25,324 nucleotides of DNA from Thermoanaerobaculia bacterium (GTDB lineage: Bacteria > Acidobacteriota > Thermoanaerobaculia > UBA2201): positions 1-25,324 of the forward strand of contig JBBFMJ010000001.1 in the NCBI GenBank assembly GCA_037478515.1. Reading direction: 5' to 3'. The position numbers and the translations under genes are program-made. Below the pieces are notes generated by a model. The model did not search any database. It saw nothing but the letters and a program-made list of their open reading frames with translations, and had not been told where the DNA came from. Shown in pieces: positions 1,775 through 25,105 of this stretch (positions within the stretch are counted from its first letter, which is position 1; the number at the start of each line of letters is the position of its first letter).

Positions 1775-1782
1775 GGGGAGAT

Positions 1783-2940: not shown

Positions 2941-3335
2941 TTACTCCACCTATTGTCTGGAGAGAAAAAGCACAAAAATATCGTATGGAGGCAGGGAAAT
3001 GTAAAAAATGTGGAAAGATTTTGTTTCCACCAAGACTCATTTGTCCAAAATGTGGGGCAAAAGAATTTGAAACTATAAATTTGCCCTTAGAAGGAAAAAT
3101 TTTGTCTTGGACAGTCATACATACAGGCCACCCTGCTTTTTCAGATCTTCAACCCTATGGAATTTTAATTGTTGAACTTATAGAGGATGTAAAACTTTTA
3201 ATGCCCTTTGCAGATTTTACAAAAGAGGATTTAAAAATTGGAAATAAAGTAAAGATTGAATTTAGAAAGATTCAAGAAGGTGGCGAATCTGGTGTAATTG
3301 CCTATGGGTATAAAGCAGTCCCATGTTTAGAATAG
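2937..3335 (+). CDS. DUF35-family Zn-ribbon/OB-fold protein (scaffold of the thiolase/HMGCS complex)
   Basis: CKKCG..FPPR..CPKCG zinc ribbon followed by an OB fold ([38 protein letters not shown]). Start reassigned from 2877 to ATG 2937: ATGA overlap with the thiolase stop and SD GGAGGT at 2925-2930. Confidence 0.92.
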
Positions 3336-13625: not shown

Positions 13626-14801
13626 ATGAAAAGCGTAATTTATCCCAACCTATCCCAGTTAGTAAAAAAGTATGGTAAGTTTGATGGTCGTCTCTGTTAT
13701 AACTGTGGAACCTGCACAGTTTCCTGTCCTATGGCAGACGAGACCACTTCTTTTCCAAGAAGGCCTATTCAAATGGTCCATGTGGGGGAGAAAGATAAAT
13801 TAATATCTATGGTTGAGCCATGGATCTGTCACTGGTGTGGGGACTGCTCAGCCAATTGTCCCCAGAAAGCAGAACCAGGGGAATCGATGAATACCATCAG
13901 AAAATACCTCTCCTCTGTTTATGACTGGACTGGGATTTCCTCAATTTTTAATAAATACTGGATTTTTAAAATTGGGCTTTATCTTTTTTCCATTGCTTTA
14001 ATCTTTGGATTGATTGCCTATTATCACATAAAAGAAGTGGGTATCTCTTTTTCTGACCTATTAAAAATGACCCCTTCGGAGATGAGTGATTCAAATTTAG
14101 GCCATGTCTTTGGAACAACTAAAATAATGTTTTATTTTACCTATGCTTTCTTCCTTTTGCCTTTAATTATACTCATAACCAACGGGATGAGGATGTGGTA
14201 TTTCACAATGAAAAGGAATAGTGCCCTTAAAATTCCCTTCTCCCTTTACCTTTCAGAACTTAAAAATTTCTTAATCCTTGGACTTACCCAGAAAAAATTC
14301 AAAGAATGCAAGGAAAAGAGTATGTGGACAAGGCACGTAACCCTTTTTGCTGGCTTTCTTTTGATTTCAATAATTGTATTTTTCTTTTTGAAATTTTTCC
14401 AGACCGATGCCATTTATCCCATCTACCATCCTCAAAGATGGCTTGGCTACATTGCTACAATCCTGATGCTTTATGGAAGTACTGCTATGATATTAGGGAG
14501 AATAACAAAGAAGGAAGAGATACACAAAAAGAGCGATTTTTCTGATTGGTCCCTTCCAATTTTATGTTTTCTTGTGGCTTTAAGCGGAATACTTATCCAT
14601 ATCTTTAGATATGTAAAAATGGAAAAGGCATCCCACTATATGTTTCTTGCTCATATTTTGATTTTAGCCCCGTTGATGCTCAAAGAACTTCCCTTTGGAA
14701 AGCTTGCCCACCTCCTCTACCATCCTCTTGGTCTTTACTTTAAAGGGGTAAAAGACAGAGCCATTAAGATGGAAGAAGAAAAAGAAGCAAAGGTTGCCTA
14801 A
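13626..14801 (+). CDS. qmoC: QmoC-like protein: HdrC-like 2x[4Fe-4S] domain plus NarI-like transmembrane (heme b) domain
   Basis: CYNCGTCTVSCP and CHWCGDCSANCP; several TM helices; YHPQRWLGY and PFGKLAH, which I recognise from QmoC; His pair in the last helix (LAH...KLAH). Start at ATG 13626 or TTG 13620. Confidence 0.8.
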   Translation: MKSVIYPNLSQLVKKYGKFDGRLCYNCGTCTVSCPMADETTSFPRRPIQMVHVGEKDKLISMVEPWICHWCGDCSANCPQKAEPGESMNTIRKYLSSVYDWTGISSIFNKYWIFKIGLYLFSIALIFGLIAYYHIKEVGISFSDLLKMTPSEMSDSNLGHVFGTTKIMFYFTYAFFLLPLIILITNGMRMWYFTMKRNSALKIPFSLYLSELKNFLILGLTQKKFKECKEKSMWTRHVTLFAGFLLISIIVFFFLKFFQTDAIYPIYHPQRWLGYIATILMLYGSTAMILGRITKKEEIHKKSDFSDWSLPILCFLVALSGILIHIFRYVKMEKASHYMFLAHILILAPLMLKELPFGKLAHLLYHPLGLYFKGVKDRAIKMEEEKEAKVA

Positions 14802-14828
14802 AATTTGAAATAAGGAGGGATATTAAAT

Positions 14829-15698
14829 ATGATTGAACAAAAGGTTGGAGCAGCAATGATAGTGGGTGGAGGGATTGGGGGAATGCAGGCAGCCCTAGAC
14901 CTGGCTGAATCAGGAATAAAGGTCTATATTGTGGAAAAGGACTCAGCCATTGGTGGAGTTATGGCTATGCTGGATAAAACCTTCCCCACCAATGACTGTG
15001 CTATGTGTACTATGGCTCCCCGTCTTGTTTCAATTGGAAGGCATAAGGATATTGAAGTTATTTCCATGGCATCCATTGAAAGGGTTGAAGGGGAAAAGGG
15101 AAATTTTAAAATAAGGATTAAAAAGAATCCAAGATATGTGGATGAAGAAAAGTGCACTGGCTGTGGCAGTTGTATTGAAAACTGCCCTGTCTATTTTAAA
15201 GTCCAGCCCTTAAAAATAGAAAGGACAAAACTGGATCCCAAATTTGAAAAGGTAAAGGAAATTGTAGCCAAACATAAGAACAGAAAAGGATTCCTGATGC
15301 CCATACTTCAGGAAATAAATGCCACCTATTATTACCTTCCAGAAAATGCTTTAAGATATGTGGCTGAAGAGACAGGCACACCTTTAATAAATATTATGAG
15401 AATAGCAACCTTTTACAGTGCCTTCAGCATAACCCCTAGGGGAAAGAATTTAATAAATGTATGCACCGGAACTGCTTGCTATGTGAAGGGAGCAGATCGT
15501 CTGATGGAAAAGTTTCAGGAAGTTTTGGATATTCCGGAAGGGGGAACCACAAAAGATATGCTCTTTACTTTAAAATCAGTTCGCTGCATTGGTTGTTGTG
15601 GTCTGGCTCCTGCAATAATGGTCAATGATACTGTCTATGGAAAACTTCTCCCCAAGGATGTGCCTGACATAATTAAAAAATACAAGGAGGCTTCATAA
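14829..15698 (+). CDS. Fusion: N-terminal HdrA fragment (FAD Rossmann start plus half a ferredoxin) and NuoE/HndA-like [2Fe-2S] domain
   Basis: Residues 1-121: IVGGGIGGMQAALDLA, EK...IGG.MA.LDKTFPTNDCAMC, PRYVDEEKCTGCGSCIENCPV. Residues ~136-289: LMPILQEIN..Y.YLP, ATFYSAFS..PRGK..INVCTGTACYVKG, VRCIGCCGLAP. SD AGGAGG upstream. Confidence 0.9.
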   Translation: MIEQKVGAAMIVGGGIGGMQAALDLAESGIKVYIVEKDSAIGGVMAMLDKTFPTNDCAMCTMAPRLVSIGRHKDIEVISMASIERVEGEKGNFKIRIKKNPRYVDEEKCTGCGSCIENCPVYFKVQPLKIERTKLDPKFEKVKEIVAKHKNRKGFLMPILQEINATYYYLPENALRYVAEETGTPLINIMRIATFYSAFSITPRGKNLINVCTGTACYVKGADRLMEKFQEVLDIPEGGTTKDMLFTLKSVRCIGCCGLAPAIMVNDTVYGKLLPKDVPDIIKKYKEAS

Positions 15699-15699
15699 T

Positions 15700-16083
15700 A
15701 TGCCAAAGCTAACCCTTGAAGATTTAAAGAAAAAAAGAGAAGAGGCAAGGTCTAAACTTTATTTAAGAGATGGAGAATTCAGAGGGAAAGTAATTGTCCA
15801 TATGGGAACCTGTGGAATTGCAGCAGGGGCAAGGGAAATAGTGGAACAATTTCTTGAAGAGGTGGAAAAAAACAATGCCAGAGACATTCAAATAACCACT
15901 TCCGGGTGTGCTGGTTTGTGCTCAAAGGAACCTATGGCAACGGTAGAGATAAAAGGTGCAGCTCCAGTAAAATACATAACCCTTAGCAGAGATAAAGTCA
16001 AAAAGATTTTTAAAGAACATATATTGGAAGGAAAAATTGTAGCTGAATATGCCCTTGGTGTGGGCTCTGAAAAAGGAGGTTAG
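15700..16083 (+). CDS. Thioredoxin-like ferredoxin, HndB/HydD-like
   Basis: VHMGTCGIAAGAR and TSGCAGLCSKEP; lies between the NuoE-like and NuoF-like genes, as hndB does in hndABCD. Confidence 0.85.
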   Translation: MPKLTLEDLKKKREEARSKLYLRDGEFRGKVIVHMGTCGIAAGAREIVEQFLEEVEKNNARDIQITTSGCAGLCSKEPMATVEIKGAAPVKYITLSRDKVKKIFKEHILEGKIVAEYALGVGSEKGG

Positions 16084-16086
16084 AAT

Positions 16087-17979
16087 ATGGCTACAAGAAG
16101 AATAGAACTTATGCTTTGTACTGGGACAGGTTGTGTGGCGGGGGGTGCCTTTAGAATAAAGGATGCCCTGGAGAAGGAAATAAAAAAACACAACCTTCAA
16201 AATGAAGTTTCTGTGGTTATAACTGGTTGTAATGGCTTTTGTGGGCAGGGTCCTATAATGGTTGTAAAACCAGACGATATTTTTTATGGTTTTTTAAATG
16301 AGCAGGAAATAGGGTATCTGGTGGAGGAACACCTTTTAAAAGGCAGGCCTGTAAAAAAATTTATGTTTACGCCCCCAGAAAAGAAGGAGCCCATTAAACT
16401 TTTGAGCGAAATTCCCTTCTTCCAGAAACAGATGCTTATTGTTTTAAGAAATAAAGGAATCATTGATCCGGAAAACATTGAAGAGTATATTGCCAGAGAT
16501 GGTTATGCTGCCCTGGAAAAGGTTCTAACCTCAATGAAGCCAGAAGAAGTCATAGAAGAGATAAAAAAATCTGGATTGAGGGGAAGGGGTGGTGCTGGAT
16601 TTCCCACGGGCCAGAAATGGGAAGTTTGTTTCAAACAGAAGGTTAAACCAAAATATTTAATCTGTAATTGTGATGAGGGAGATCCCGGCGCTTATATGGA
16701 CAGGTCTGTCTTTGAAACAGATCCCCATTCTGTAATTGAAGGTATGATAATTGCTTCCTACGCCTGTGATATAGATCAGGCATTTATTTATATAAGAACA
16801 GAATATCCCCTGGCAGTGCAGAGAGCAGCCAAGGCAATTCAGCAGGCAAAGGAATATGGACTTTTAGGGAAAAATATTTTGGGAACAAATTTTAGTCTGG
16901 ACATTGAAATAAGGGAAGGTTCAGGTGCCTTTGTATGTGGAGAAACCACTTCCCTGCAGCATTCCATTGAAGGTAAAAACCCAGAACCCAGGCAGAGACC
17001 TCCCAGGACTTCTGAAAAGGGCTTATGGGATCAACCCACAGTGGTAAATAATGTGGAAACCCTGGCAAATGTACCTGTTATCATTTTAAGGGGTGGTGAC
17101 TGGTATGCCAGCATTGGCACTGAAAAAAGCAAAGGGACTAAAATATTTTCTCTTGTAGGAAAGGTAAATAACACGGGCCTTGTGGAAGTTCCTATGGGTA
17201 TAACTTTGAGGGAAATGATTTATGATATAGGTGGTGGAATTCCAAAGGGGAAAAAATTTAAAGCAGTTCAAACGGGTGGTCCTTCTGGTGGCTGTATCCC
17301 AGAAAAATATCTGGATACACCTGTGGATTTTGAAACTTTAACTTCCCTGGGTTCAATGATGGGTTCTGGTGGTATGATTGTAATGGACGAAGATACTTGC
17401 ATGGTGGATGTAGCAAAATATTTTATACAATTTACCAATGATGAGTCCTGTGGAAAATGCACCATCTGCAGGGAAGGTTCAGGGGCTTTACTGGAGGTTT
17501 TAACAAGGATTACAGAAGGAAAAGGCAAGGAAAGAGATATTGAATATTTAGAAGAACTCTGTGCAGCCATAATTGATGGATCCCTCTGTGGTCTGGGAAA
17601 CAGTTTGCCCTATCCAGTTTTAACTACTCTTAAATATTTCAAAGAAGAATATGAAGCCCATATTAAAGAGAAAGCGTGCCCTGCCAGATCCTGTAAAAGT
17701 TTAATTAAATACTGGATTGATCCAGACAGGTGCGTGGGCTGTCTATTATGTATGAAAAACTGTCCCACCAATGCCATATCAGGGAAAACAAAATTTATCC
17801 ATACTATAAATTATGAATTATGTACAAAATGTGGAAACTGTTTTGATGTCTGCCCTGAAAAAGTAGGGGCAGTTAAAAAACTAACAGGTACTGAACCTGA
17901 AAAAGTGGTCTATTTAAAGGAGCCAGTTGCAGTGGGGGATTGGAAAAAACAAAAACAAGAGGAGGGAAAAAATGATTAA
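16087..17979 (+). CDS. NuoF/HndC/HydB-like NAD(P)H-binding flavoprotein, long form with extra FeS domains
   Basis: N-terminal Trx-like CTGTGC...GCNGFC; SGLRGRGGAGFPTG; CNCDEGDPGAYMDR; GAFVCGETTSL; NNVETLAN; GGPSGG; SCGKCTICREG/SLCGLG; EDTC and H...K.CPARSC site; C-terminal CVGCLLCMKNCP and CTKCGNCFDVCP. Confidence 0.93.
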   Translation: MATRRIELMLCTGTGCVAGGAFRIKDALEKEIKKHNLQNEVSVVITGCNGFCGQGPIMVVKPDDIFYGFLNEQEIGYLVEEHLLKGRPVKKFMFTPPEKKEPIKLLSEIPFFQKQMLIVLRNKGIIDPENIEEYIARDGYAALEKVLTSMKPEEVIEEIKKSGLRGRGGAGFPTGQKWEVCFKQKVKPKYLICNCDEGDPGAYMDRSVFETDPHSVIEGMIIASYACDIDQAFIYIRTEYPLAVQRAAKAIQQAKEYGLLGKNILGTNFSLDIEIREGSGAFVCGETTSLQHSIEGKNPEPRQRPPRTSEKGLWDQPTVVNNVETLANVPVIILRGGDWYASIGTEKSKGTKIFSLVGKVNNTGLVEVPMGITLREMIYDIGGGIPKGKKFKAVQTGGPSGGCIPEKYLDTPVDFETLTSLGSMMGSGGMIVMDEDTCMVDVAKYFIQFTNDESCGKCTICREGSGALLEVLTRITEGKGKERDIEYLEELCAAIIDGSLCGLGNSLPYPVLTTLKYFKEEYEAHIKEKACPARSCKSLIKYWIDPDRCVGCLLCMKNCPTNAISGKTKFIHTINYELCTKCGNCFDVCPEKVGAVKKLTGTEPEKVVYLKEPVAVGDWKKQKQEEGKND

Positions 17980-20900
17980 GATTATTGTGGATGGAAAAGA
18001 AGTAGAAATTGAAGGTGGTCAAAAATTAATTAAAGCAGTGGAAGCAGCAGGGGTAAAGGTTCCAACCCTTTGCTATCATAAGGCATTGAGCCCCTATGGT
18101 GCTTGCCGTTTGTGCGTGGTGGAGGTGGGGGCAAAGGGAAGGAGTAAATCCGTCCAGGCATCCTGTACTTACCCTGCCAGCGATGGGCTGGAAGTTTTGA
18201 CTAATACAGAGAGGGTAAGAAGGGTAAGAAAGATTGCTTTAGAACTTCTGCTTGCTAGGTGCCCCTCTTCTGAAACCATCCAGCTTCTGGCTGCTGAATA
18301 TGGGGTCTTTGAGCCCAGGATTGAAAAGAAAAATGAGGACTGTATAAATTGTGGGCTCTGCATTAGGATGTGTGAAGAGAGGATGGGAAGAAAGGTCTTA
18401 GGTTTTACAGGAAGGGGTCCAAGAAAAAAATTAGAGCCACCCTTTTCGGCAAAAAATCCTGCCTGCTGGGCCTGTGGTGCCTGTAATTTTATTTGCCCAG
18501 TGGGAAAGAAAGTTACAGATCTTACTACAGATCTGGAATTCAAACCCATTGAAGATAGATTCAATAGGGGTTTGAGCAGCAGGGCAGTTGCCCATATCCT
18601 CTATCCCCAGGCAGTACCAGCCAAGGCAGTTCTGGACCCAGAAAATTGTATTAGGTTAAATTATGATGCCTGTGGTATCTGCGCTGAAGTATGCGAACCC
18701 AAGGCAATAAATTTTGAAGACAAGGGTAAGGAGCTGGAAATAAATGTGGGTTCCATAATCCTTGCCCCTGGATTTGATCCTTACAAACCAGAGGAAAAGG
18801 AAGATTTGGGTTATAAAAAATTTCCAAATGTGGTTACCTCCATTGAATTTGAAAGAATCCTCTCTGCTTCAGGTCCCTACTGCGGAGAGGTAAAGAGGCC
18901 CTCTGATGGAAAACATCCAGAAAAGATTGCCTTTATCCAATGCGTTGGATCAAGAGAAAAGGAAAGAAACTGGTGCTCTTCTGTTTGCTGTATGTATGCC
19001 ACAAAGGAAGCAATTATGGCAAAGGAACATGCAGGGGAGAGTTTAAAATGTGATATCTATTTTATGGATGTGAGGGCATATTCAAAGGGTTTTGAACAAT
19101 ATTATGATAGTGCCAAGAAGCTGGGAATAAATTATATAAGGTGCAGGGTTCCAAAACTGGAGGAAAACCCAGAAAATAAAAATATCATAGTAACCTATCT
19201 TGGTGAGGATGATAGAAAATTAAAAGCAGAATATGATATGGTTATACTTTCCATAGGCCTCTGCCCTCCTTCAGATGCAAAGAAAATAGCTGAAAAATTT
19301 GGCATTGACTTGAACGAATTTGGTTTTGCTTCCTCTTCCACCTTCAAGCCAGTGGAGACAAAAAGGGAAGGGATTTACATTGCAGGTCCCTTCACGGAGC
19401 CCAAGGATATTCCAGAAACAGTAATGCAGGCAACTGCTTCTGCTTCTAAGGCACTTTCAGTGCTGGCTGATGTAAAGGGTCAGCTTATAAAGCCCATGGT
19501 ATTTCCTGAGGAAGTGGATGTTACAGGGCAGGAGCCCAGAATTGGGGTATTTGTATGCCATTGCGGAACAAATATTGCAGGAGTTGTAAATGTTCCGGAA
19601 GTGGTGGAATATGCAAAAACCCTTCCCAATGTGGTCTTTGCCACTAATACAATTTATACCTGCTCCAATGATACCCAGGAACTTATAAAACAAAAGATAA
19701 AGGAATACAATTTGAATAGAATTATTGTCTCTGCTTGCACTCCAAGAACCCATGAACCCCTTTTCAGAAATACTGTAAAGGAAGCGGGTTTAAATCCCTA
19801 TCTCTTTGAAATGGCAAATATAAGGGATCAAAACTCTTGGGTGCATATGCAGTTCCCCGATGCAGCAACTAAAAAGGCAAAGGACCTCGTCAGAATGGCA
19901 GTGGCAAAGGCAAGATTGCTAGAACCTTTACAGAACAGCTACATAGATATAATAAAAAATGCCCTGGTAATTGGGGGTGGTATTGCAGGTATGAAGGCAT
20001 CCATGGAGCTGGCAAATCAAGGATACAAAGTTTACCTTTTAGAAAAGACAGGGGAACTGGGTGGAAATTTAAGGAATATCCATTATTTATTAAACGGAGA
20101 AAATCCAAAAGAGGAGCTGGAAAAGATTATAAAAGAGGTAAAGGAAAATAAAAATATTGAAATTTACTTTAATGCAAAAATAGAAGAGGTGGAGGGCTCC
20201 GTGGGAAGGTATAAGACAAAGATAAAATCCAATGGAAATGAGTATGTTTTTGAACATGGAGTTGTAATAATTGCAATGGGTGGAAAGGAATATGAGCCCA
20301 AAGAATATATGTATGGAGAAGATGGAAGGGTCCTCACCCAGAGGCAATTGGAAGAAAAGATTGCAAAAAAAGAAATTAAACTTCCTGAAACTGTGGTAAT
20401 GATCCAGTGCGTGGGTTCCAGAGAAGGGGAAAGGCCATCCTGTTCAAGGATATGCTGCGGTATTGCCATAAAGAATGCATTAAAAATCAAGGAAATTTCA
20501 CCAAAAACCAATGTTTTCATACTTTACAGAGATGTAAGGGCTTATGGATTTAAAGAAAAGTATTACACTCTGGCAAGGGATAAAGGGGTAACCTTTATAA
20601 GATGGGATATTGAAGATGGAAAACCAGCCGTTTATAAAAATAATGGAAAAATATATGTTGATGTAAAGGATAAGATTTTGAATATGGAGCATACAATTCC
20701 AGCAGACCTTGTAGTTTTATCCACTGGGGTTATGCCTAACGAAGATCATAAAGAAGTTGCCCAGCATTTTAAGGTTCCGGTTACTGCAGAAGGATACTTT
20801 CTGGAAGCCCATATGAAACTCCGGCCTGTGGACTTTGCCACAGATGGTGTTTTCCTTGCAGGTCTTGCTCATTTCCCCAAGACCATTGATGAAAGCATAA

Positions 20901-21220
20901 TCCAGGCACAGGCATCGGCAGCAAGGGCAGCAACTATTCTTTCAAAGGACAAATTAGAGCTGGAAGCCACAATTTCAAAAGTCATTGATGAAAACTGCGA
21001 TGGTTGTGCTTACTGTGTGGATACCTGTCCTTACAAAGCCATTACCCTTCTGGAATATGTTTTTCAGGGCAGCATAAAGAAGACCGTGGAAGCCAATGAA
21101 AGCTTATGCAAGGGCTGTGGGACCTGTATGGCAACCTGCCCAAAGAAAGGTATTCTTGTAAAGGGCTTTACCTTGGAGCAGCTGCAGGCACAGGTCTTTG
21201 CAGCACTTGAACAATCTTAA
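17972..21220 (+). CDS. Fusion: NuoG/HndD-like N-terminal FeS region, remainder of HdrA copy 1, and a complete second HdrA/QmoB-like module
   Basis: Start reassigned from 17927 to ATG 17972 (SD AGGAGG). Res 1-178: PTLCY, GACRLCVVE, ASC, CINCGLCIRMC, CWACGACNFICP. Res ~192 onward: RFNRGLSSRA...YPQAVP, ENC...CGICAEVC, VGSIILAPGF, TSIEFERILSASGP, FIQCVGSR, CSSVCCMYATKEA, AGP...PKDIPETV. Then IGVFVCHCG.NI, ACTPRTHEPLF, NIRDQ, ALVIGGGIAG, MIQCVGSR, CSRICC, EAH.KLRPV, CDGCAYCVDTCP, CKGCGTCMATCP. Confidence 0.92.
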   Translation: MIKIIVDGKEVEIEGGQKLIKAVEAAGVKVPTLCYHKALSPYGACRLCVVEVGAKGRSKSVQASCTYPASDGLEVLTNTERVRRVRKIALELLLARCPSSETIQLLAAEYGVFEPRIEKKNEDCINCGLCIRMCEERMGRKVLGFTGRGPRKKLEPPFSAKNPACWACGACNFICPVGKKVTDLTTDLEFKPIEDRFNRGLSSRAVAHILYPQAVPAKAVLDPENCIRLNYDACGICAEVCEPKAINFEDKGKELEINVGSIILAPGFDPYKPEEKEDLGYKKFPNVVTSIEFERILSASGPYCGEVKRPSDGKHPEKIAFIQCVGSREKERNWCSSVCCMYATKEAIMAKEHAGESLKCDIYFMDVRAYSKGFEQYYDSAKKLGINYIRCRVPKLEENPENKNIIVTYLGEDDRKLKAEYDMVILSIGLCPPSDAKKIAEKFGIDLNEFGFASSSTFKPVETKREGIYIAGPFTEPKDIPETVMQATASASKALSVLADVKGQLIKPMVFPEEVDVTGQEPRIGVFVCHCGTNIAGVVNVPEVVEYAKTLPNVVFATNTIYTCSNDTQELIKQKIKEYNLNRIIVSACTPRTHEPLFRNTVKEAGLNPYLFEMANIRDQNSWVHMQFPDAATKKAKDLVRMAVAKARLLEPLQNSYIDIIKNALVIGGGIAGMKASMELANQGYKVYLLEKTGELGGNLRNIHYLLNGENPKEELEKIIKEVKENKNIEIYFNAKIEEVEGSVGRYKTKIKSNGNEYVFEHGVVIIAMGGKEYEPKEYMYGEDGRVLTQRQLEEKIAKKEIKLPETVVMIQCVGSREGERPSCSRICCGIAIKNALKIKEISPKTNVFILYRDVRAYGFKEKYYTLARDKGVTFIRWDIEDGKPAVYKNNGKIYVDVKDKILNMEHTIPADLVVLSTGVMPNEDHKEVAQHFKVPVTAEGYFLEAHMKLRPVDFATDGVFLAGLAHFPKTIDESIIQAQASAARAATILSKDKLELEATISKVIDENCDGCAYCVDTCPYKAITLLEYVFQGSIKKTVEANESLCKGCGTCMATCPKKGILVKGFTLEQLQAQVFAALEQS

Positions 21221-21236
21221 ATTAAAGAGGTGAAAT

Positions 21237-21653
21237 ATGTCTGAGAACTTTGAACCCTTCATAATTGCTTTTTGTTGTAACTGGTGTTCCTATGCAGCAG
21301 CAGACCTGGCAGGGGTCTCCAGGTTTCAGTATCCCCCTAATATGAGGCTTATTAGAGTTATGTGTTCTGGTATGGTGCATCCAAACCTTATAATTGATGC
21401 CTTGACAAGGGGTGCTGACGGCGTAATTGTTTGTGGATGCCACCCAGGGGACTGCCATTATCTTTCAGGAAATCTGGTTGCAAAGAAAAGGGAAGAGGGT
21501 ATCTATTTAATGCTGGATGACTTGGGGATTGAAAGGGACAGGTTCCGCTTGGAATGGATTTCTGCTGCAGAAGGAATTAAATTTTCTCAGGTTATGAAGG
21601 AATTCACCGAGCAAATAAGAAAACTGGGTCCCAGCCCTTATAGAACATTTTAA
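21237..21653 (+). CDS. mvhD: Methyl-viologen-reducing hydrogenase delta subunit ([2Fe-2S], MvhD/FlpD family)
   Basis: AFCCNWCSYAAAD, RLIRVMCSG, GADGV..CGCHPGDCHY, RFRLEWISAAEG. Confidence 0.95.
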   Translation: MSENFEPFIIAFCCNWCSYAAADLAGVSRFQYPPNMRLIRVMCSGMVHPNLIIDALTRGADGVIVCGCHPGDCHYLSGNLVAKKREEGIYLMLDDLGIERDRFRLEWISAAEGIKFSQVMKEFTEQIRKLGPSPYRTF

Positions 21654-21662
21654 GGAGTGCTT

Positions 21663-21854
21663 ATGAACCTCTCCAAAATATTTGAAGGAAAAAAATTTAT
21701 GTGGGATGGGGGGGAGTATAAAGATGAAAAGGAAGCCACAGAAGTGATGAATAAATACAAAAATGATGGTTTTGAGACCTATCTTTATAAGGAAAATGAT
21801 AAATATTATGTTTTTACAAGAAAAGTGGTATCAGAAATTAAGGTTGAAAGCTGA
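21663..21854 (+). CDS. Small hypothetical protein (63 aa) inside the Hdr-Mvh operon
   Basis: SD AAGGAG at 21652-21657, 5 nt before ATG 21663 (alternative GTG 21657). KKFMWDG...Y...GFE.....YYVFTRKVV; fills the gap between mvhD and mvhG; no Cys. Confidence 0.8.
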   Translation: MNLSKIFEGKKFMWDGGEYKDEKEATEVMNKYKNDGFETYLYKENDKYYVFTRKVVSEIKVES

Positions 21855-21859
21855 TGCCC

Positions 21860-21888
21860 TTGAAAATGTTTTAAAAAAAGCTTAATAT
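21860..21888 (+). promoter_or_regulatory. Candidate internal promoter upstream of mvhG
   Basis: TTGAAA (21860-21865), 17 nt, TAATAT (21883-21888); SD AAGGAGGT before ATG 21934. The region is AT-rich, so a chance match is possible. Confidence 0.45.
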
Positions 21889-21891
21889 AAA

Positions 21892-21911
21892 TTGAGAGTT
21901 GGGACTCTCAA
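21892..21911. repeat. Perfect 8-bp hairpin in the mvhG leader
   Basis: TTGAGAGT-TGGG-ACTCTCAA; no plus-strand U tract follows. Confidence 0.65.
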
Positions 21912-21933
21912 AATAAATAAATAAGGAGGTTTT

Positions 21934-22860
21934 ATGGCAGTAAAAGTTGCTAATGAATGTTTTGCCATCTGTCAGGGATGCGAAATTACCATCCTGGACA
22001 TCGGAGAAACCCTTCTGGAACTCCTTCCCCAGCTTGAATTTGTACATATGCCTGTTCTGATGGATCACAAACTCTTTGGTCAGACCGGTGAAAAAGATAA
22101 GATGGAGATACCTGAAGCAGATGTGGGAATCATCTCAGGAGGAGTGAGAAATGAGGAAAACAAAGAAGTTCTAAAGGAAATGAGAGCCAAATGCAAGACC
22201 CTTATTGCCCTTGGTTCCTGTGCCTGTTTTGGTGGGATTCCAGCCCTGGCAAATCAGTTTCAACTGGCTGAACTTTATGAAAAGGTTTACAGGCAATCCA
22301 AAAGTACTGATCCCGCCGAAACTCCTTCAAAAGAGGTACCCCCTTTGACAGATAGAGTTTATGCTTTGGATGAGATTGTAAAAGTAGATGTATATATCCC
22401 TGGCTGTCCAACTCAACCTGAAATTATTCTGGAAGCTTTAACTGCCCTTCTTCAGGGCAAGCCCTTCTCCCTGCCAGAAAGATCTGTGTGCGATGATTGT
22501 CCTACCCAGAGGCAGAAGAAAGCAGATATCTCCTTGAGAAGACCCCTGGAAAATGTAACAGATATTACAAAAAAAGTGGAAGAATCCAGATGTTTTATGG
22601 AACTGGGATATTTATGCCTGGGTCCTGTGACCAAGTCAGGTTGTGGTGGTCATGAGAAAGTTCCAAGGTGTATAAAAGGATATATGCCTTGCAGAGGTTG
22701 TTTTGGTCCTATCAGAAAGGGTGCAAATCCACTGGTGGAAATGATTGGTGCCTTATCATCCATTGGGCTTGATCCAAACCTGATCCCAGACAGGGCAGCA
22801 ACAATTCAAAGGTATATTGGTGCCCACAACAGGTTAAGACCACTACCAAAAAGACCATAA
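21934..22860 (+). CDS. mvhG: [NiFe]-hydrogenase small subunit, group 3c (MvhG-like)
   Basis: CQGCEITILD, ALGSCACFGGIP, YIPGCP, VCDDCP, RCF....LCLGPVT..GC, C....MPCRGCFGP; no Tat signal. Confidence 0.92.
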   Translation: MAVKVANECFAICQGCEITILDIGETLLELLPQLEFVHMPVLMDHKLFGQTGEKDKMEIPEADVGIISGGVRNEENKEVLKEMRAKCKTLIALGSCACFGGIPALANQFQLAELYEKVYRQSKSTDPAETPSKEVPPLTDRVYALDEIVKVDVYIPGCPTQPEIILEALTALLQGKPFSLPERSVCDDCPTQRQKKADISLRRPLENVTDITKKVEESRCFMELGYLCLGPVTKSGCGGHEKVPRCIKGYMPCRGCFGPIRKGANPLVEMIGALSSIGLDPNLIPDRAATIQRYIGAHNRLRPLPKRP

Positions 22861-22875
22861 TTTAAGGAGGAAAAA

Positions 22876-24318
22876 ATGAAAAAAATAGTTATACAACCCG
22901 TATCAAGGATTGAAGGACATGCAAAGGTAACAATCCAGCTGGACGATGCTGGAAATGTCCAGGACACCTGGGTAAATGTAATAGAACTAAGGGGCTTTGA
23001 AAAGTTCTGTATTGGAAAGCCCGTAGAGGAACTTCCCAGGATTGTGACTTCCATCTGTGGTGTCTGCCCCTGGTCTCACCATCTTGCCTCATCCAAGGCA
23101 TGCGATGCTGTCTTTGGTGTGCAGCCCCCACCTGCAGGTAGAAAATTAAGGGAACTCTGCAATTCCATTGCCTATACTGAAGAACACACTCTCCATTTTT
23201 ATTTTCTGGCAGGCGCAGATTTTGTAATGGGTCCTGATGAGGATTATTCTATAAGAAATGTAATTGGTATTGCCCAGAAATATCCAGACATAGGTAAGAA
23301 AGTTGTAAGGTGCAGGCATCTTGCAGCAGTTATGCTGGACATTGTTTCAGGAAAAGCAATCCACCCTGTCACTTCTGTTCCAGGGGGAGTAAGCAAACCT
23401 TTAAGGCAAGAAGAAGTTGAAAAATTAAAACCTATGGCAGAGGAAATGCTGGAATTTGCAAAATTTTCCATTGATTTTGCCAAGAAAAATATCTTCCCCA
23501 AATTTCTGGATGCAGTAAAAACCATTGGGGTAATTGAAACAGGTTTTCTGGGAACCGTAAAGGATGATGGTGCTTTGGACCTCTATGATGGGAAACTAAG
23601 GATGATGACCCCCGATGGGAAGTATGAGGACTTTACTTATGAACAGTATACTGATTTTATTGCTGAGCATATTGAGCCCTGGTCCTATTTGAAGTTTCCC
23701 TATATGAAGAAAGCAGGTGGTTTTTCTATGGACCTGGCAAATCCCAAAGGAATTTACAGAACCAATACCCTTGCCAGAATAAATGTATGTGATTATATTC
23801 CAACCCCACTTGCCCAAGCAGAACTGGAAGAATTCAGAAAGAATTTTGGAAGACCCTGTCAGCTTACACTCCTTTATAACTGGGCACGCCTTATAGAACT
23901 TTTATACAATGCAGAAATGGTTGTAAAACTTTTAAATGACCCAGAAATTACTTCCACTGATACCAGGGTTCCAGTAAAGCCCAGAGCAGCAAGGGGTATT
24001 GGCTGTGTGGAAGCCCCCAGAGGAACCCTCATCCACGATTATGAAACCGATGCCAATGGGATTGTTACAAATGTTAATTTAATTGTAGGAACTACCCACA
24101 ACAATGCTCCCATAAATATGTCTGTTAAGAAAACTGCCAAAGAACTCATAAAAGATGGAAAATATGATCAGGGAATTTTAAACCGCTTAGAGATGGCAAT
24201 TAGAGCCTATGACCCCTGCCTCTCCTGTGCTACACATAAGCTGGATGGTACCCTTCCTGTTAAAGTTGAAATAATTGACAAAAACTTCAAAAAAATAGAT
24301 ACCTTGGTAAATTATTAA
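22876..24318 (+). CDS. mvhA: [NiFe]-hydrogenase large subunit, group 3c (MvhA-like)
   Basis: PVSRIEGHAK, ELRGFEKF, L1 SICGVCPWSHH, EAPRGTLIHDY, TTHN, L2 RAYDPCLSCATH followed by a 26-aa cleavable C-terminal extension. Cys, not Sec. Confidence 0.94.
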   Translation: MKKIVIQPVSRIEGHAKVTIQLDDAGNVQDTWVNVIELRGFEKFCIGKPVEELPRIVTSICGVCPWSHHLASSKACDAVFGVQPPPAGRKLRELCNSIAYTEEHTLHFYFLAGADFVMGPDEDYSIRNVIGIAQKYPDIGKKVVRCRHLAAVMLDIVSGKAIHPVTSVPGGVSKPLRQEEVEKLKPMAEEMLEFAKFSIDFAKKNIFPKFLDAVKTIGVIETGFLGTVKDDGALDLYDGKLRMMTPDGKYEDFTYEQYTDFIAEHIEPWSYLKFPYMKKAGGFSMDLANPKGIYRTNTLARINVCDYIPTPLAQAELEEFRKNFGRPCQLTLLYNWARLIELLYNAEMVVKLLNDPEITSTDTRVPVKPRAARGIGCVEAPRGTLIHDYETDANGIVTNVNLIVGTTHNNAPINMSVKKTAKELIKDGKYDQGILNRLEMAIRAYDPCLSCATHKLDGTLPVKVEIIDKNFKKIDTLVNY

Positions 24319-24324
24319 AAATTT

Positions 24325-24360
24325 AAGGCACGGCTTAAAAAATAAGCCGTGCCTTTTCTT
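24325..24360 (+). terminator. Intrinsic terminator-like hairpin after mvhA
   Basis: AAGGCACGGCTTA-AAAAA-TAAGCCGTGCCTT: perfect 13-bp stem with a 5-nt loop; its end runs into TTTTCTT. Confidence 0.85.
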
Positions 24361-24852
24361 ATGGAAAATTACCCATCTTACTGTCTTAAGAAAAATTTAG
24401 TTTTAGGTTGTGGAAATATCTTTTTTGGCGATGATGGTTTTGGTCCTGAATTTATAAAGTACCTGGAAGAAAGTGGATTGATACCAGAGGATACAATTGC
24501 CATAAATGCAGGTTTAAGCATAAGAGAAATTTTATTTAACATTGTTTTAAGTGATAAAAAGCCAGAAAGGATAGTTATAATAGATGCTGTAGATTTAGGG
24601 GAAGAGCCAGGAGAGATTTTTGAGGTAGACCTGGATGAGATTCCCAAAATTAAGATAGATGATTTTTCTATGCACCAGATGCCCACTTCCAATCTTTTAA
24701 AGGAATTAAAAGAGAAAGGAAATGTGGAGGTAAGGGTTTTATCAATTCAGGTAGAAAATATCCCCGAAGAGATAAGCCCTGGAATATCAGAAAAACTAAA
24801 AAATTCTTATGAAAAAATGTATCAAAAATTAGTAAAAATACTGGAGGAATAA
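24361..24852 (+). CDS. Hydrogenase maturation endopeptidase (HyaD/HycI/FrhD family)
   Basis: LVLGCGNIFFGDDGFG, IVIIDAVD.G..PG, SMHQ. ATG 24361 preferred because GTG 24349 lies inside the terminator stem. Confidence 0.92.
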   Translation: MENYPSYCLKKNLVLGCGNIFFGDDGFGPEFIKYLEESGLIPEDTIAINAGLSIREILFNIVLSDKKPERIVIIDAVDLGEEPGEIFEVDLDEIPKIKIDDFSMHQMPTSNLLKELKEKGNVEVRVLSIQVENIPEEISPGISEKLKNSYEKMYQKLVKILEE

Positions 24853-24853
24853 T

Positions 24854-25105
24854 ATGCACGAGTGGAAAATAACAGAATCAATTATTGAGGAAATTTTAAA
24901 GCAAGCAGAAGCCAGTGGGATAAAAAAAGTTAATAAGGTCATTCTTTCCATTGGGCAGGACTCAGATTTAACCCCTGATGTTATAAATTTTTGTTTTGAT
25001 AATTTAAAAAACAATTTTCCTATAAATAGAGACCTGGATCTGGAAATAAAAATGAGGGAGGGAATGGGCGGAGTAATAATTGAGGAGATTGAAGGAGAAG
25101 ATTAG
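24854..25105 (+). CDS. hypA: HypA-like nickel metallochaperone lacking the zinc-finger domain (83 aa)
   Basis: N-terminal MHE Ni motif, V..V.L.IG..S...P....F.F, L.LEI, then directly GGVIIEEIEGED; no CxxC pair. Confidence 0.8.
   Translation: MHEWKITESIIEEILKQAEASGIKKVNKVILSIGQDSDLTPDVINFCFDNLKNNFPINRDLDLEIKMREGMGGVIIEEIEGED

What the first reader, a model, noticed from the sequence alone, without database searches (positions are those of the whole stretch)
16087..21220. Two classes of candidate electron-bifurcation centre in one complex
Seen: the NuoF-like protein keeps the whole long HydB-type inventory (N-terminal Trx [2Fe-2S], FMN site with GDPGAYM, N3 cluster, EDTC/H..K.CPARSC site, two C-terminal [4Fe-4S]). 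HdrA copy 1 keeps TSIEFER and CCMYATKEA; copy 2 has TQRQLEE and CCGIAIKNA. Known: A-x-M at that loop and the extra clusters correlate with bifurcating HydB; a Glu and a Lys in these HdrA segments are implicated at the bifurcating FAD. Inference: an FMN-based and one or two FAD-based sites could operate in series, which I do not know from any characterised enzyme.
Basis: partly seen in the sequence, partly recalled or inferred. Interest (0 to 1): 0.72.

Follow-up and report, generated by a model that had tools for sequence, protein, structure and literature searches.

The report
Hydrogenase joining two electron-bifurcation modules
This operon encodes a membrane-anchored nickel-iron hydrogenase that carries both a HydB-type (FMN) and an HdrA-type (FAD) electron-splitting module in one fused assembly; the pairing is real and widespread in uncultured bacteria, but it is already known from a benzoyl-CoA reductase.

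Summary
The NuoF-like protein (16087-17979) is a complete BfuB/HydB-type subunit. It meets all published bifurcation markers, and the "WYASIG" tyrosine is not one of them.

The next gene (17972-21220) fuses a short NuoG-like domain to a tandem HdrA. HdrA unit 1 is incomplete inside the finding. Its Rossmann/CxxC half lies on the upstream gene (14829-15200), fused to NuoE. So nuoE, a small ferredoxin gene, nuoF and nuoG(N) sit inside HdrA's inserted ferredoxin domain.

A close relative carries a GltD-like module at the same point in one polypeptide. The fusions therefore force a single complex.

Unit 1 has everything a bifurcating HdrA flavin needs. Unit 2 keeps the Lys and Glu but lacks its own CxxC and inserted ferredoxin domain, so it is probably not a branch point.

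With MvhD, an Mvh-type [NiFe] hydrogenase and a QmoC-like cytochrome b, the operon recurs in at least six phylum-level lineages.

The pairing is not unprecedented. Class II benzoyl-CoA reductase (BamDEFGHI) couples the same two module types in series.

Verdict: new variant of a known kind. Serial operation is plausible but untested.

The parts
13626..14801 (+). QmoC-like subunit: N-terminal 2x[4Fe-4S] HdrC-like domain plus a multi-helix membrane domain with six invariant His
   Evidence: NCBIfam qmoC NF038018, 185.5 bits over residues 17-372, below the 300-bit cut-off. Invariant Cys and His in 8 orthologues. A model docks its Fe-S domain next to the unit-1 cluster loop.
14829..15200 (+). N-terminal half of HdrA unit 1 (P0004 residues 1-124): FAD Rossmann GGGIGG, CxxC (Cys57/Cys60), and the first CxxCxxCxxxCP of the inserted ferredoxin domain
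   Evidence: Residues 8-122 align to HdrA 145-258 of 5ODC_A and 153-267 of 8RVU_a, E 1e-37 to 3e-44. 87% identical to residues 1-124 of the unsplit relative P0013.
15231..15698 (+). NuoE/HydC (BfuC) domain with [2Fe-2S], fused to the HdrA half above
   Evidence: PF01257 at E 9.7e-48. HydC 8A6T_C at E 5e-48. The fusion is conserved in 6 loci.
15700..16083 (+). Small thioredoxin-like ferredoxin-type protein (P0005, 127 aa); an optional subunit
   Evidence: Weak NCBIfam 2Fe-2S ferredoxin match, E 3.6e-10. A 127-aa gene sits at the same place in L008, L026 and L028 and is absent in L009, L011 and L027.
16087..17979 (+). NuoF-like BfuB/HydB long form: Trx [2Fe-2S], FMN/NAD(P)H core, N3-type [4Fe-4S], 3Cys+His (Zn or B2) site, C-terminal 2x[4Fe-4S]
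   Evidence: 794 bits to 7T2R_B over residues 1-596. Pfam domains. Markers checked.
16678..16698 (+). GDPGAYM loop (Asp199, Ala202, Met204)
   Evidence: Invariant in 7 orthologues. The canonical NuoF of the same genome has GEPGTFK. Marker from PMC7311640.
17972..18538 (+). Short NuoG-like BfuA domain: [2Fe-2S] (Cys49/60/63/80) plus 2x[4Fe-4S] (Cys139-149, Cys180-190); no His-ligated cluster
   Evidence: PF13510 and PF22117. Best solved match is the short BfuA of Wor-Bfu, 9MQX_A, E 1e-38. The Cys are invariant in 30 homologues.
18539..19531 (+). C-terminal part of HdrA unit 1 (P0002 residues 205-535): second cluster motif of the inserted ferredoxin domain (Cys241-256), Glu309, [4Fe-4S] Cys339/350/354/355, Lys360
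   Evidence: Aligns to 5ODC_A 245-510. Glu and Lys invariant in 118 homologues. Lys invariant in 37 unsplit tandem HdrAs.
18836..18856 (+). TSIEFER (Glu309 = HdrA Glu356 position)
18986..19012 (+). CCMYATKEA (Lys360 = HdrA Lys409 = position 280 when the two halves are numbered continuously)
19532..21220 (+). HdrA unit 2 (residues 536-1097): N-terminal domain with [4Fe-4S] (Cys544/546/579/604), FAD domain (GGGIAG 683), [4Fe-4S] Cys828/839/843/844, Glu809, Lys849, C-terminal 2x[4Fe-4S]; no inserted ferredoxin domain and no CxxC
   Evidence: Aligns to 8RVU_a 10-244 and 322-655, skipping 245-321. Cys invariant.
20336..20356 (+). TQRQLEE (Glu809)
20453..20479 (+). CCGIAIKNA (Lys849; position 769 in continuous numbering, within one residue of BamE Gln768 by numbering only)
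21237..21653 (+). MvhD adaptor ([2Fe-2S])
   Evidence: PF02662 at E 9e-55. VhuD and the HdrA2 C-terminal domain.
21663..21854 (+). Conserved 63-aa Cys-free ORF (KKFMWDG...YVFTR)
   Evidence: A homologous 65-68 aa ORF is present in 6 other loci: between mvhD and mvhG in L008, L011, L026, L027 and L028, and after the hycI gene, upstream of the qmoC-like gene, in L009.
21934..22860 (+). [NiFe] hydrogenase small subunit, Mvh/Vhu G type
   Evidence: PF01058. VhuG NF045875 at E 1e-65.
22876..24318 (+). [NiFe] hydrogenase large subunit, Mvh/Vhu A type (group 3c-like)
   Evidence: PF00374. VhuA NF041785 at E 6e-140.
24349..25105 (+). Maturation genes: HycI-type endopeptidase and a short HypA
   Evidence: PF01750 and PF01155

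Best explanation
The finding is the core of one 11.5-kb operon (13626-25105) for a multi-modular, probably membrane-bound [NiFe] hydrogenase.

Its centre is a BamE-like tandem HdrA, a covalent pseudo-dimer. Unit 1 carries the FAD, the CxxC, a neighbouring [4Fe-4S] and the inserted ferredoxin domain. Unit 2 supplies the N-terminal cluster domain, the C-terminal ferredoxin domain and a second FAD.

Unit 1 is split inside its inserted ferredoxin domain. The genes for a complete Bfu/HydBC-type module lie in the gap and are fused to both halves: NuoE, a small ferredoxin, NuoF and a short NuoG-like domain.

Shown:
- the architecture
- conservation of every cofactor ligand
- the fusions
- the multi-phylum conservation of the operon

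Inferred mechanism:
1. H2 is oxidised at MvhA. Electrons pass through MvhG and MvhD to the unit-1 FAD.
2. That FAD bifurcates.
3. The high-potential electron goes through the Cys339 cluster to the QmoC-like Fe-S domain, then to haem b and menaquinone.
4. The low-potential electron goes through the unit-2 N-domain cluster and the inserted ferredoxin domain into the fused BfuA clusters.
5. The Bfu FMN/Fe-S site distributes these electrons to NAD(P)+ and ferredoxin.

This would be two bifurcation steps in series: one HdrA-type FAD and one Bfu-type FMN. The cascade may also run in reverse. The unit-2 FAD is most likely structural or a simple relay.

Such a cascade would let cells make NAD(P)H and reduced ferredoxin from H2 at low partial pressure, paid for by quinone reduction.
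For: One complex:
- P0004 residues 8-122 equal HdrA 145-258.
- P0002 residues about 205-460 equal HdrA 262-510.
- Together they make one flavin domain, with NuoE and NuoG(N) covalently attached.
- The relative P0013 (L001) has the same two halves in one chain with a GltD-like module at the same point. It is 87% identical in the N-half, and the rest of the operon is the same.
- Unsplit forms (L003, P0139) and forms with other inserts exist.

Bfu module complete:
- 794 bits to 7T2R_B.
- HydC-like domain.
- All Losey markers met, whereas the canonical NuoF of the same genome fails all of them.
- The markers are invariant in 7 orthologues.
- The 3Cys+His site is conserved.

HdrA unit 1 as the branch point:
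- Lys360 and Glu309 are invariant.
- The Lys is invariant in 37 unsplit tandem HdrAs, and the CxxC is conserved.
- In methanogen Hdr and in BamE, the inserted ferredoxin domain is the low-potential exit and the neighbouring cluster is the high-potential exit.

QmoC docking:
- Model score 0.69 against a best control of 0.39. That mark was reached by 58 of 80 solved complexes and 2 of 110 mismatched pairs.
- The runs agree in at least 93% of contacts, and the partner pLDDT is at least 78.
- Contacts include P0002 residues 343-345, beside Cys339, with QmoC residues 79-83.
- HdrA-HdrC complexes are already solved, so this pass may reflect likeness only.

Context:
- The operon is conserved in 7 further loci named Acidobacteriota/Korobacteraceae, Fidelibacterota, Deltaproteobacteria, Eisenbacteria and Gemmatimonadota, plus one unnamed JGI metagenome contig.
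- More than 100 protein clusters are at least 61% identical.
- menA and a canonical complex I NuoF are present in the genome.

Precedent: serial confurcation then bifurcation was shown for BCRII.
Against: - No biochemical data exist for any member.
- In BCRII the Bfu module feeds the input side (BamI to the C-terminal ferredoxin domain to MvhD), not the low-potential exit. The fused BfuA domain here could fold back and do the same. I could not obtain coordinates to measure cofactor distances.
- The QmoC-like protein scores below the NCBIfam cut-off. Its quinone or haem binding is inferred only from conserved His.
- At high H2 no bifurcation would be needed to reduce NAD(P)+.
- A GltD-like module can replace the Bfu module in relatives. 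That fits a role as a plain NAD(P)H port.
- The genome is only 82.6% complete, so missing partners cannot be excluded.
Confidence: 0.55

Rival explanations
1. Only the Bfu module bifurcates. The enzyme is an NAD(P)H- and ferredoxin-dependent [NiFe] hydrogenase like NiFe-HydABCSL. The tandem HdrA and MvhD serve only as an electron wire and scaffold between MvhAG and BfuA, and the QmoC-like protein is an anchor.
For: P0001 is most similar to the bifurcating NiFe-HydABCSL subunit B. One of the two BamE flavins is described as structural. Mvh-type hydrogenases always come with MvhD and HdrA-like partners.
Against: Across the whole superfamily the unit-1 Lys, Glu and CxxC are invariant, and so are all cluster ligands. 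The Cys and His of the QmoC-like subunit are invariant across phyla. The model places its cluster motif next to the unit-1 [4Fe-4S]. Together these give the FAD a third branch.
Confidence: 0.2
2. Only the HdrA unit-1 FAD bifurcates. The NuoEF(G) cassette is an NAD(P)(H) entry or exit port on the low-potential branch and does no bifurcation of its own.
For: Close relatives carry a GltD-like NAD(P)H module at exactly the same insertion point. This suggests the shared requirement is simply a pyridine-nucleotide site. The window's NuoF has an altered nucleotide pocket, CGETTSL/RPPRT.
Against: Every feature that distinguishes bifurcating BfuB from plain NuoF is kept and invariant in 7 orthologues across phyla. 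These are the Trx domain, the C-terminal ferredoxin domain, the 3Cys+His hinge, AxM, Phe282 and GGPSG. The same module works as a confurcating unit in BCRII.
Confidence: 0.15
3. Three bifurcation centres: the FMN and both FADs all bifurcate, with unit 2 serving a second, unidentified pair of acceptors.
For: Unit 2 keeps GGGIAG, its own [4Fe-4S], Glu809 and Lys849. The Lys is present in 117 of 118 family members. By contrast BamE is reported to have Gln at the equivalent place.
Against: Unit 2 has no CxxC and no inserted ferredoxin domain. There is no second N-terminal cluster domain to serve it. Its Lys position is M, R, E, H, T, I or Q in other tandem HdrAs. The family members are at least 61% identical, so invariance within the family is weak evidence.
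Confidence: 0.07
4. Two or more separate enzymes that merely share an operon.
For: None beyond the general caution that gene neighbourhood does not prove a complex.
Against: Neither half of HdrA unit 1 can form an FAD domain alone, and each half is fused to a Bfu subunit. The genes are tightly packed or overlap.
Confidence: 0.02

Closest known systems
Class II benzoyl-CoA reductase core, BamDEFGHI of Geobacter metallireducens (BCRII)
   Same: It has the same two module types in one complex: a HydBC/Bfu-type BamGH(I) with a short BfuA, an MvhD adaptor, and a fused HdrA dimer. The domain order matches: TrxR1 with CxxC and inserted ferredoxin domain, then N-domain, TrxR2 and C-terminal ferredoxin domain. 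With the two halves numbered continuously, the unit-1 Lys falls at 280, as reported for BamE.
   Different: - Catalytic partner is an Mvh-type [NiFe] hydrogenase instead of the tungsten BamBC.
- A QmoC-like membrane cytochrome replaces the soluble HdrBC-like BamD.
- The HdrA dimer is split, with the Bfu genes inserted in and fused to the inserted ferredoxin domain.
- MvhD is short (138 aa), with no selenocysteine.
- The second flavin keeps Lys, where BamE is reported to have Gln.

I could not retrieve a BamE sequence, so this comparison rests on the preprint's description.
MvhAGD-HdrABC of hydrogenotrophic methanogens (5ODC, 8RVU)
   Same: The hydrogenase subunits, MvhD and the HdrA domains are 45-60% identical over aligned stretches. 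Glu356, Lys409, Cys197/200 and all cluster motifs are conserved in unit 1.
   Different: - There is no HdrB or HdrC here. The genome's CCG-domain genes lie on other contigs.
- HdrA is a covalent hetero-pseudo-dimer with complementary domain loss.
- NAD(P)H and membrane modules are added.
Electron-bifurcating NiFe-HydABCSL of Acetomicrobium mobile (7T2R) and the Bfu family
   Same: The BfuB and BfuC parts are near full-length homologues, at 794 and 143 bits, with all clusters and markers.
   Different: BfuA is the short type 2 form, with the 2Fe-2S plus two 4Fe-4S, as in Wor-Bfu and Bam-Bfu. The hydrogenase is Mvh-type and is reached through HdrA and MvhD, not HydSL. No Mvh-HdrA member is described in the Bfu classification that I read.
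QmoABC and HdrL of sulfate reducers
   Same: The QmoC-like subunit combines an HdrC-like Fe-S domain with a cytochrome b domain alongside HdrA-type flavoproteins. The GltD-inserted relatives match the description of HdrL as a large HdrA protein with NAD(P)H-binding domains.
   Different: There is no AprAB and there are no QmoA or QmoB genes. The qmoC model score is below its cut-off. The HdrL literature that I could read does not describe the insertion point or the NuoEF-split form.

Membership tests
Bfu / HydB-type bifurcating NuoF homologue (BfuB with BfuC) | N-terminal thioredoxin-like [2Fe-2S] domain | tested here: met
   Cys11/16/48/52. PF01257 over residues 5-80. Aligned to 7T2R_B from residue 1.
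Bfu / HydB-type bifurcating NuoF homologue (BfuB with BfuC) | C-terminal 2x[4Fe-4S] ferredoxin domain, plus a 3Cys+His hinge site (Zn or B2) | tested here: met
   Fer4 domains at 542-592. Cys438, His525, Cys531 and Cys536 align with 7T2R_B and are conserved in 7 orthologues. The site is defined in PMC9499530 and PMC8880783.
Bfu / HydB-type bifurcating NuoF homologue (BfuB with BfuC) | Sequence markers of Losey et al. 2020: A/E-x-M in the NADH loop, Phe instead of Tyr in GxGA(F/Y)xCGE, and GGPSG | tested here: met
   Ala202/Met204, Phe282 and GGPSG 397-401. The canonical NuoF of the same genome has T..K, Tyr and GGVSA.
Bfu / HydB-type bifurcating NuoF homologue (BfuB with BfuC) | HydC/NuoE-type partner with [2Fe-2S] | tested here: met
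   P0004 residues 135-287 against 8A6T_C, E 5e-48.
Bfu / HydB-type bifurcating NuoF homologue (BfuB with BfuC) | Coupled NAD(P)- and ferredoxin-dependent activity | not testable with these tools
   Needs enzyme assays.
HdrA-type flavin-based bifurcation site | TrxR-like FAD domain with a Lys near flavin N5 (Lys409 in HdrA, Lys280 in BamE) and an adjacent CxGSR..C..CC [4Fe-4S] | tested here: met
   Unit 1: Lys360 and Cys339/350/354/355. Unit 2: Lys849 and Cys828/839/843/844. The role of the Lys comes from the BCRII preprint. The role of the Glu is from my memory of the 2017 Hdr structure paper and was not checked.
HdrA-type flavin-based bifurcation site | Own low-potential branch: CxxC (position 197/200), N-domain cluster and inserted ferredoxin domain | tested here: met
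   Met once only, for unit 1. The CxxC is at P0004 Cys57/60. The inserted ferredoxin domain is split between P0004 Cys109-119 and P0002 Cys241-256. The N-domain cluster comes from unit 2. Unit 2 has none of its own.
HdrA-type flavin-based bifurcation site | HdrBC (CCG-domain) high-potential module | tested here: not met
   No CCG domain in the window. A QmoC-like protein sits in its place.
Class II benzoyl-CoA reductase (BamBCDEFGHI) | Tungsten AOR-type BamB with BamC, and HdrBC-like BamD | tested here: not met
   No AOR-family or CCG-domain gene in the operon or window. The same operon in 7 other loci also lacks them.
QmoABC | QmoC equivalog score; QmoA/QmoB genes; linkage to AprAB | tested here: not met
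   The qmoC model scores 185.5 bits against a 300-bit cut-off, although the match is full length. No qmoAB or aprAB in the window.
Mvh/Vhu (group 3c) [NiFe] hydrogenase | Large and small subunits of Vhu/Mvh type with an MvhD partner | tested here: inconclusive
   The best NCBIfam models are VhuA (466 bits against an 800-bit cut-off), VhuG (222 against 450) and VhuD (132 against 215). All are below the archaeal equivalog cut-offs. No hydrogenase phylogeny was made.

The most novel reading that the evidence does not exclude
The inserted ferredoxin domain of a tandem (BamE-like) HdrA acts as a plug-in socket. Evolution has inserted interchangeable NAD(P)H modules into it: a whole Bfu cassette that splits the gene, a GltD/NfnB-like module, or extra polyferredoxin.

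In the window's form this would create a true two-stage cascade. An HdrA-type FAD splits H2 electrons between menaquinone and a Bfu site, and the Bfu site splits them again between NAD(P)+ and ferredoxin. The Bfu module would then be wired to the low-potential exit, the opposite of BCRII.

This would give soil and sediment bacteria a way to make ferredoxin-level reductant from trace H2.
Probability: 0.3. Interest if true: 0.8.

Novelty: new variant of a known kind. Interest (0 to 1): 0.58.

Why it matters
Whether bifurcation modules can be stacked in series is a current question. The only worked example is benzoyl-CoA reductase.

This operon would be a second, independent case, with three differences:
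- a different catalytic partner (H2)
- a membrane/quinone link
- apparently different wiring

It occurs in uncultured Acidobacteriota, Fidelibacterota, Gemmatimonadota, Eisenbacteria and Deltaproteobacteria-type MAGs. It could therefore bear on how H2 is used or produced at low partial pressure in soils and sediments.

The series of split, GltD-inserted and unsplit forms also gives a clean natural experiment on how modular redox enzymes are assembled.

Tried and rejected
- **WYASIG Tyr340 as the 'non-bifurcating Tyr'.** Rejected. The marker Tyr is in GAGAYICGEE of canonical NuoF. This protein has Phe282 there. The WY/WF position varies among orthologues, and canonical NuoF has WF.
- **Selenocysteine as the cause of short nuoE gene calls in L008 and L011.** Rejected. 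The upstream frame is open with Cys, not TGA, so the gene callers simply chose a late start.
- **Search for a description of this operon.** Literature searches with HdrA/NuoF/MvhD, HdrA/NuoEF/MvhADG, QmoC/NuoF/HdrA/NiFe and 'group 3c'/HdrA/NuoF found none. The 2021 review of HdrA modules is not held, so prior mention there cannot be excluded.
- **Retrieval of a named BamE sequence.** The cluster look-up failed. The BCRII coordinates are not in the PDB copy searched.
- **A second HdrA locus or a GltD-inserted paralogue in the window's own genome.** Not found in this 82.6%-complete MAG.
- **MqnA/MqnD family (PF02621).** Not found. menA is found at its cut-off.
- **Cofactor distance maps.** I could not compute them, because the tools return no coordinates.

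Full report
**Operon layout**

The window is one contig of a 2.1-Mb, 82.6%-complete MAG. Its closest named relative is an Acidobacteriota MAG. Genes from 13626 to 25105 lie on the + strand. Gaps are 1 to 79 nt, and two genes overlap by 8 nt.

| Coordinates | Product | Evidence |
|---|---|---|
| 13626-14801 | QmoC-like protein (P0003) | NF038018 full length, 185 bits, below cut-off |
| 14829-15698 | P0004: HdrA-type N-terminus fused to NuoE | |
| 15700-16083 | small thioredoxin-like ferredoxin (P0005) | |
| 16087-17979 | long NuoF-like protein (P0001) | |
| 17972-21220 | NuoG(N)-HdrA-HdrA protein (P0002) | |
| 21237-21653 | MvhD | |
| 21663-21854 | 63-aa ORF | |
| 21934-24318 | Mvh/Vhu-type small and large [NiFe] subunits | |
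| 24349-25105 | HycI and HypA | |

**The observation**

P0001 aligns from residue 1 to 596 with subunit B of the electron-bifurcating NiFe-HydABCSL (7T2R_B, 794 bits). It aligns almost as well with the HydB, HylB/StnB, NfnB and Wor-Bfu B subunits.

It has:
- the Trx-like [2Fe-2S] Cys
- the FMN core
- the N3-type cluster
- the EDTC / H..CPxxC site
- two C-terminal [4Fe-4S] motifs

The literature reads the EDTC / H..CPxxC site either as a Zn hinge (3 Cys + His, PMC9499530) or as a [2Fe-2S] B2 cluster (PMC8880783).

**HydB markers**

Losey et al. 2020 (PMC7311640) give three sequence markers besides the extra clusters:
- A/E-x-M in the NADH loop
- Phe rather than Tyr at the position of the Nqo1 Tyr that hydrogen-bonds NADH
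- GGPSG

I aligned P0001 with the canonical 424-aa NuoF of the same genome (contig C52).

| Marker | P0001 | Canonical NuoF (C52) |
|---|---|---|
| NADH loop | GDPGAYM | GEPGTFK |
| Phe/Tyr position | GSGAFVCGE | GAGAYICGEE |
| SLBB motif | GGPSG | GGVSA |
| 'WYASIG' position | WY | WF |

That position also varies (WY or WF) among seven orthologues, while all true markers are invariant. P0001 therefore passes every sequence test for a Bfu-type subunit. Its partner, P0004 residues 135-287, is HydC-like.

**The HdrA part is a split tandem**

P0002 matches HdrA in three stretches:
- residues 535-769 equal HdrA 2-237
- residues 927-1089 equal HdrA 487-645
- residues 179-460 equal HdrA 245-510

Searched alone, unit 2 (536-1097) covers HdrA 10-244 and 322-655. 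It skips the inserted ferredoxin domain and lacks the Cys197/200 CxxC.

Unit 1 inside P0002 begins only in the middle of the inserted ferredoxin domain. The missing piece is residues 8-122 of P0004, about 60% identical to methanogen HdrA. That piece holds the Rossmann fold, the TNDCAMC motif and the first CxxCxxCxxxCP. Hence nuoE, the small ferredoxin gene, nuoF and nuoG(N) are inserted inside HdrA unit 1.

Three further observations support this:
- The Acidobacteriota relative L001 encodes one 1484-aa chain (P0013). Its first 124 residues are 87% identical to P0004. They are followed by a GltD/NfnB-like module (Fer4_20 + Pyr_redox_2), then the rest of unit 1 and unit 2. The QmoC-like (77% identical), MvhD, MvhG and MvhA genes are arranged as here.
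- Unsplit tandem HdrAs of about 1000-1040 aa with the same domain order exist in archaea and bacteria (L003, P0139). Other variants carry extra ferredoxin repeats at the same spot.
- All Cys ligands of every predicted cluster are invariant in 30 homologues of P0002 and 7 of P0004.

**Which flavins could bifurcate**

By my count on the alignment, Glu309 and Lys360 (unit 1) correspond to Glu356 and Lys409 of 5ODC HdrA. So do Glu809 and Lys849 (unit 2). Both pairs are invariant in 118 family members, with Lys849 in 117 of 118.

The BCRII preprint names the Lys near flavin N5 as the hallmark of the bifurcating FAD of BamE (Lys280). It reports Gln768 at the non-bifurcating second FAD. Numbering the two halves of the window's protein continuously puts the two Lys at 280 and 769. 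This fits the same architecture. I could not obtain a BamE sequence to align directly.

In 37 unsplit tandem HdrAs the unit-1 Lys is invariant. The unit-2 position is K, M, R, E, H, T, I or Q.

In methanogen Hdr the roles of the domains are as follows (PMC13518236; BCRII):
- The low-potential route runs from the FAD through the N-domain cluster, helped by residue 197, to the inserted ferredoxin domain.
- The high-potential route runs through the adjacent cluster to HdrC.

The window's pseudo-dimer has exactly one full set of these parts, and all of them serve unit 1. I therefore read unit 1 as the HdrA-type bifurcating site. Unit 2 is probably a scaffold or relay, even though it keeps the Lys.

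**One complex, and its likely wiring**

Each half of unit 1 is fused to a Bfu subunit, so the FMN module and the FAD module cannot be separate enzymes. The linkers are short, about 15-20 residues from the last BfuA Cys to the HdrA-homologous segment and a similar distance on P0004. By inference, this places the BfuA clusters next to the inserted ferredoxin domain, which is the low-potential exit. In BCRII, by contrast, BamI feeds the C-terminal ferredoxin domain on the input side. Here that side should be occupied by MvhG and MvhD, as in methanogens.

A three-chain model was run with the QmoC-like Fe-S domain, the P0004 N-half and P0002 residues 205-1003. It docked the QmoC domain in the groove between the two units:
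- Score 0.69; best control 0.39.
- That mark was reached by 58 of 80 solved complexes and 2 of 110 mismatched pairs.
- The runs agree in at least 93% of contacts, and the partner pLDDT is at least 78.
- QmoC residues 79-83 (second cluster motif) touch P0002 residues 343-345, beside the unit-1 cluster Cys339.

HdrA-HdrC complexes are solved, so the pass may only reflect that likeness.

The genome has menA at its cut-off and a canonical complex I NuoF, so a quinone pool is plausible.

**Proposed function (inferred)**

- H2 is oxidised by MvhAG, and electrons reach the unit-1 FAD via MvhD.
- One electron goes to menaquinone through the QmoC-like subunit.
- The other goes through the inserted ferredoxin domain into the Bfu module, which reduces NAD(P)+ and ferredoxin.

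A rough calculation from standard potentials, on my own knowledge and not from a tool:
- At 1-10 Pa H2 the H+/H2 couple is about -270 to -300 mV.
- Sending half the electrons to menaquinone (-74 mV) could lift the other half to about -460 to -520 mV.
- That is enough to act as the 'mid-potential' donor of a Bfu site.

The reverse direction, making H2 from NAD(P)H, reduced ferredoxin and menaquinol, is only feasible at extremely low H2.

**Distribution**

- The 1081-1090-aa protein has more than 100 clusters at 61% identity or above.
- The whole operon, including the HdrA(N)-NuoE fusion and the 63-aa ORF, recurs in loci named Korobacteraceae, Fidelibacterota, Deltaproteobacteria, Eisenbacteria and Gemmatimonadota, and in a 2.4-Mb JGI contig.
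- Among 1.84 billion representatives, about ten 50%-identity clusters show the full fusion.
- In an even sample of 201 genomes of the window's phylum, 3 (including this one) have the fusion and 4 have the GltD-inserted form. The system is broad but patchy.

**Comparison with what is known**

The pairing of a Bfu module with an HdrA module is established for class II benzoyl-CoA reductase. Schut et al. 2022 proposed two bifurcations in series there. The 2026 preprint shows confurcation at BamGH followed by bifurcation at BamE.

What appears undescribed in the literature I could search is this combination:
- an Mvh hydrogenase
- a QmoC-like anchor
- a tandem HdrA split by a fused Bfu cassette

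The GltD-inserted relatives fit the loosely described 'HdrL' of sulfate reducers.

I rate it a new variant of a known kind. Its interest lies mainly in being a second, differently wired example of stacked bifurcation modules.

Noticed in passing
window 16936-17010: The window's NuoF has CGETTSL and RPPRT where all six orthologues have CGEE(T/S)SL and RPPFP. The canonical NuoF has CGEETGL and RPPFP. These residues line the NAD(H) adenosine pocket, so a lineage-specific shift toward NADP(H) is possible.
   Followed up: partly
window 21663-21854: A 63-aa Cys-free ORF (KKFMWDG...YVFTR) after mvhD has homologues of 65-68 aa in six other loci from different phyla. It is probably a real small subunit or assembly factor.
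   Followed up: partly
window 15700-16083: P0005 is a 127-aa thioredoxin-like ferredoxin-type protein with only three Cys in the usual positions (MGTCG...SGCAGLC). It is present in some orthologous operons and absent in others. In L009 and L011, which lack it, the NuoF N-terminus carries a P0005-like sequence instead.
   Followed up: partly
L008 7251-10004; L026 6202-9004: In the Fidelibacterota and Eisenbacteria operons, five genes sit between nuoF and the NuoG-HdrA gene: four recognisable regulatory-type genes (DRTGG, CBS/HATPase, PHP, HATPase) and one with no Pfam match. This resembles the sensory genes of some HydABC/Hnd operons.
   Followed up: no
L027 5811-8954; own genome contig C19 (L022): The Gemmatimonadota operon has a 1047-aa NuoF fused to a GltD-like module in place of the C-terminal ferredoxin domain. 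The window's own genome has a separate open frame of about 1050 aa with the same NuoF-GltD combination.
   Followed up: no
L008 4110-4586; L011 7244-7714; L026 upstream of 3502: Gene callers annotated only a 134-147-aa NuoE in these loci. In L008 and L011, which I translated, the frame is open upstream and encodes the HdrA N-half. L026 shows a similar uncalled gap that I did not translate. Automated annotation hides the fusion.
   Followed up: yes
P0170, P0147, P0186, P0131 (representative proteins): The tandem-HdrA superfamily has further architectures. One has extra polyferredoxin at the insertion point (1218 aa). One has an inserted ferredoxin domain in both units (1129 aa). Some are shorter GltD-inserted forms (about 1320 aa). 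Some HdrA-NuoE fusions carry about 140 additional N-terminal residues (418-436 aa).
   Followed up: partly
window 722-3335: HMG-CoA synthase-like, thiolase-like and DUF35/ChsH2-type OB-fold genes lie in a row, followed by a carboxyltransferase. They are unrelated to the hydrogenase operon.
   Followed up: no
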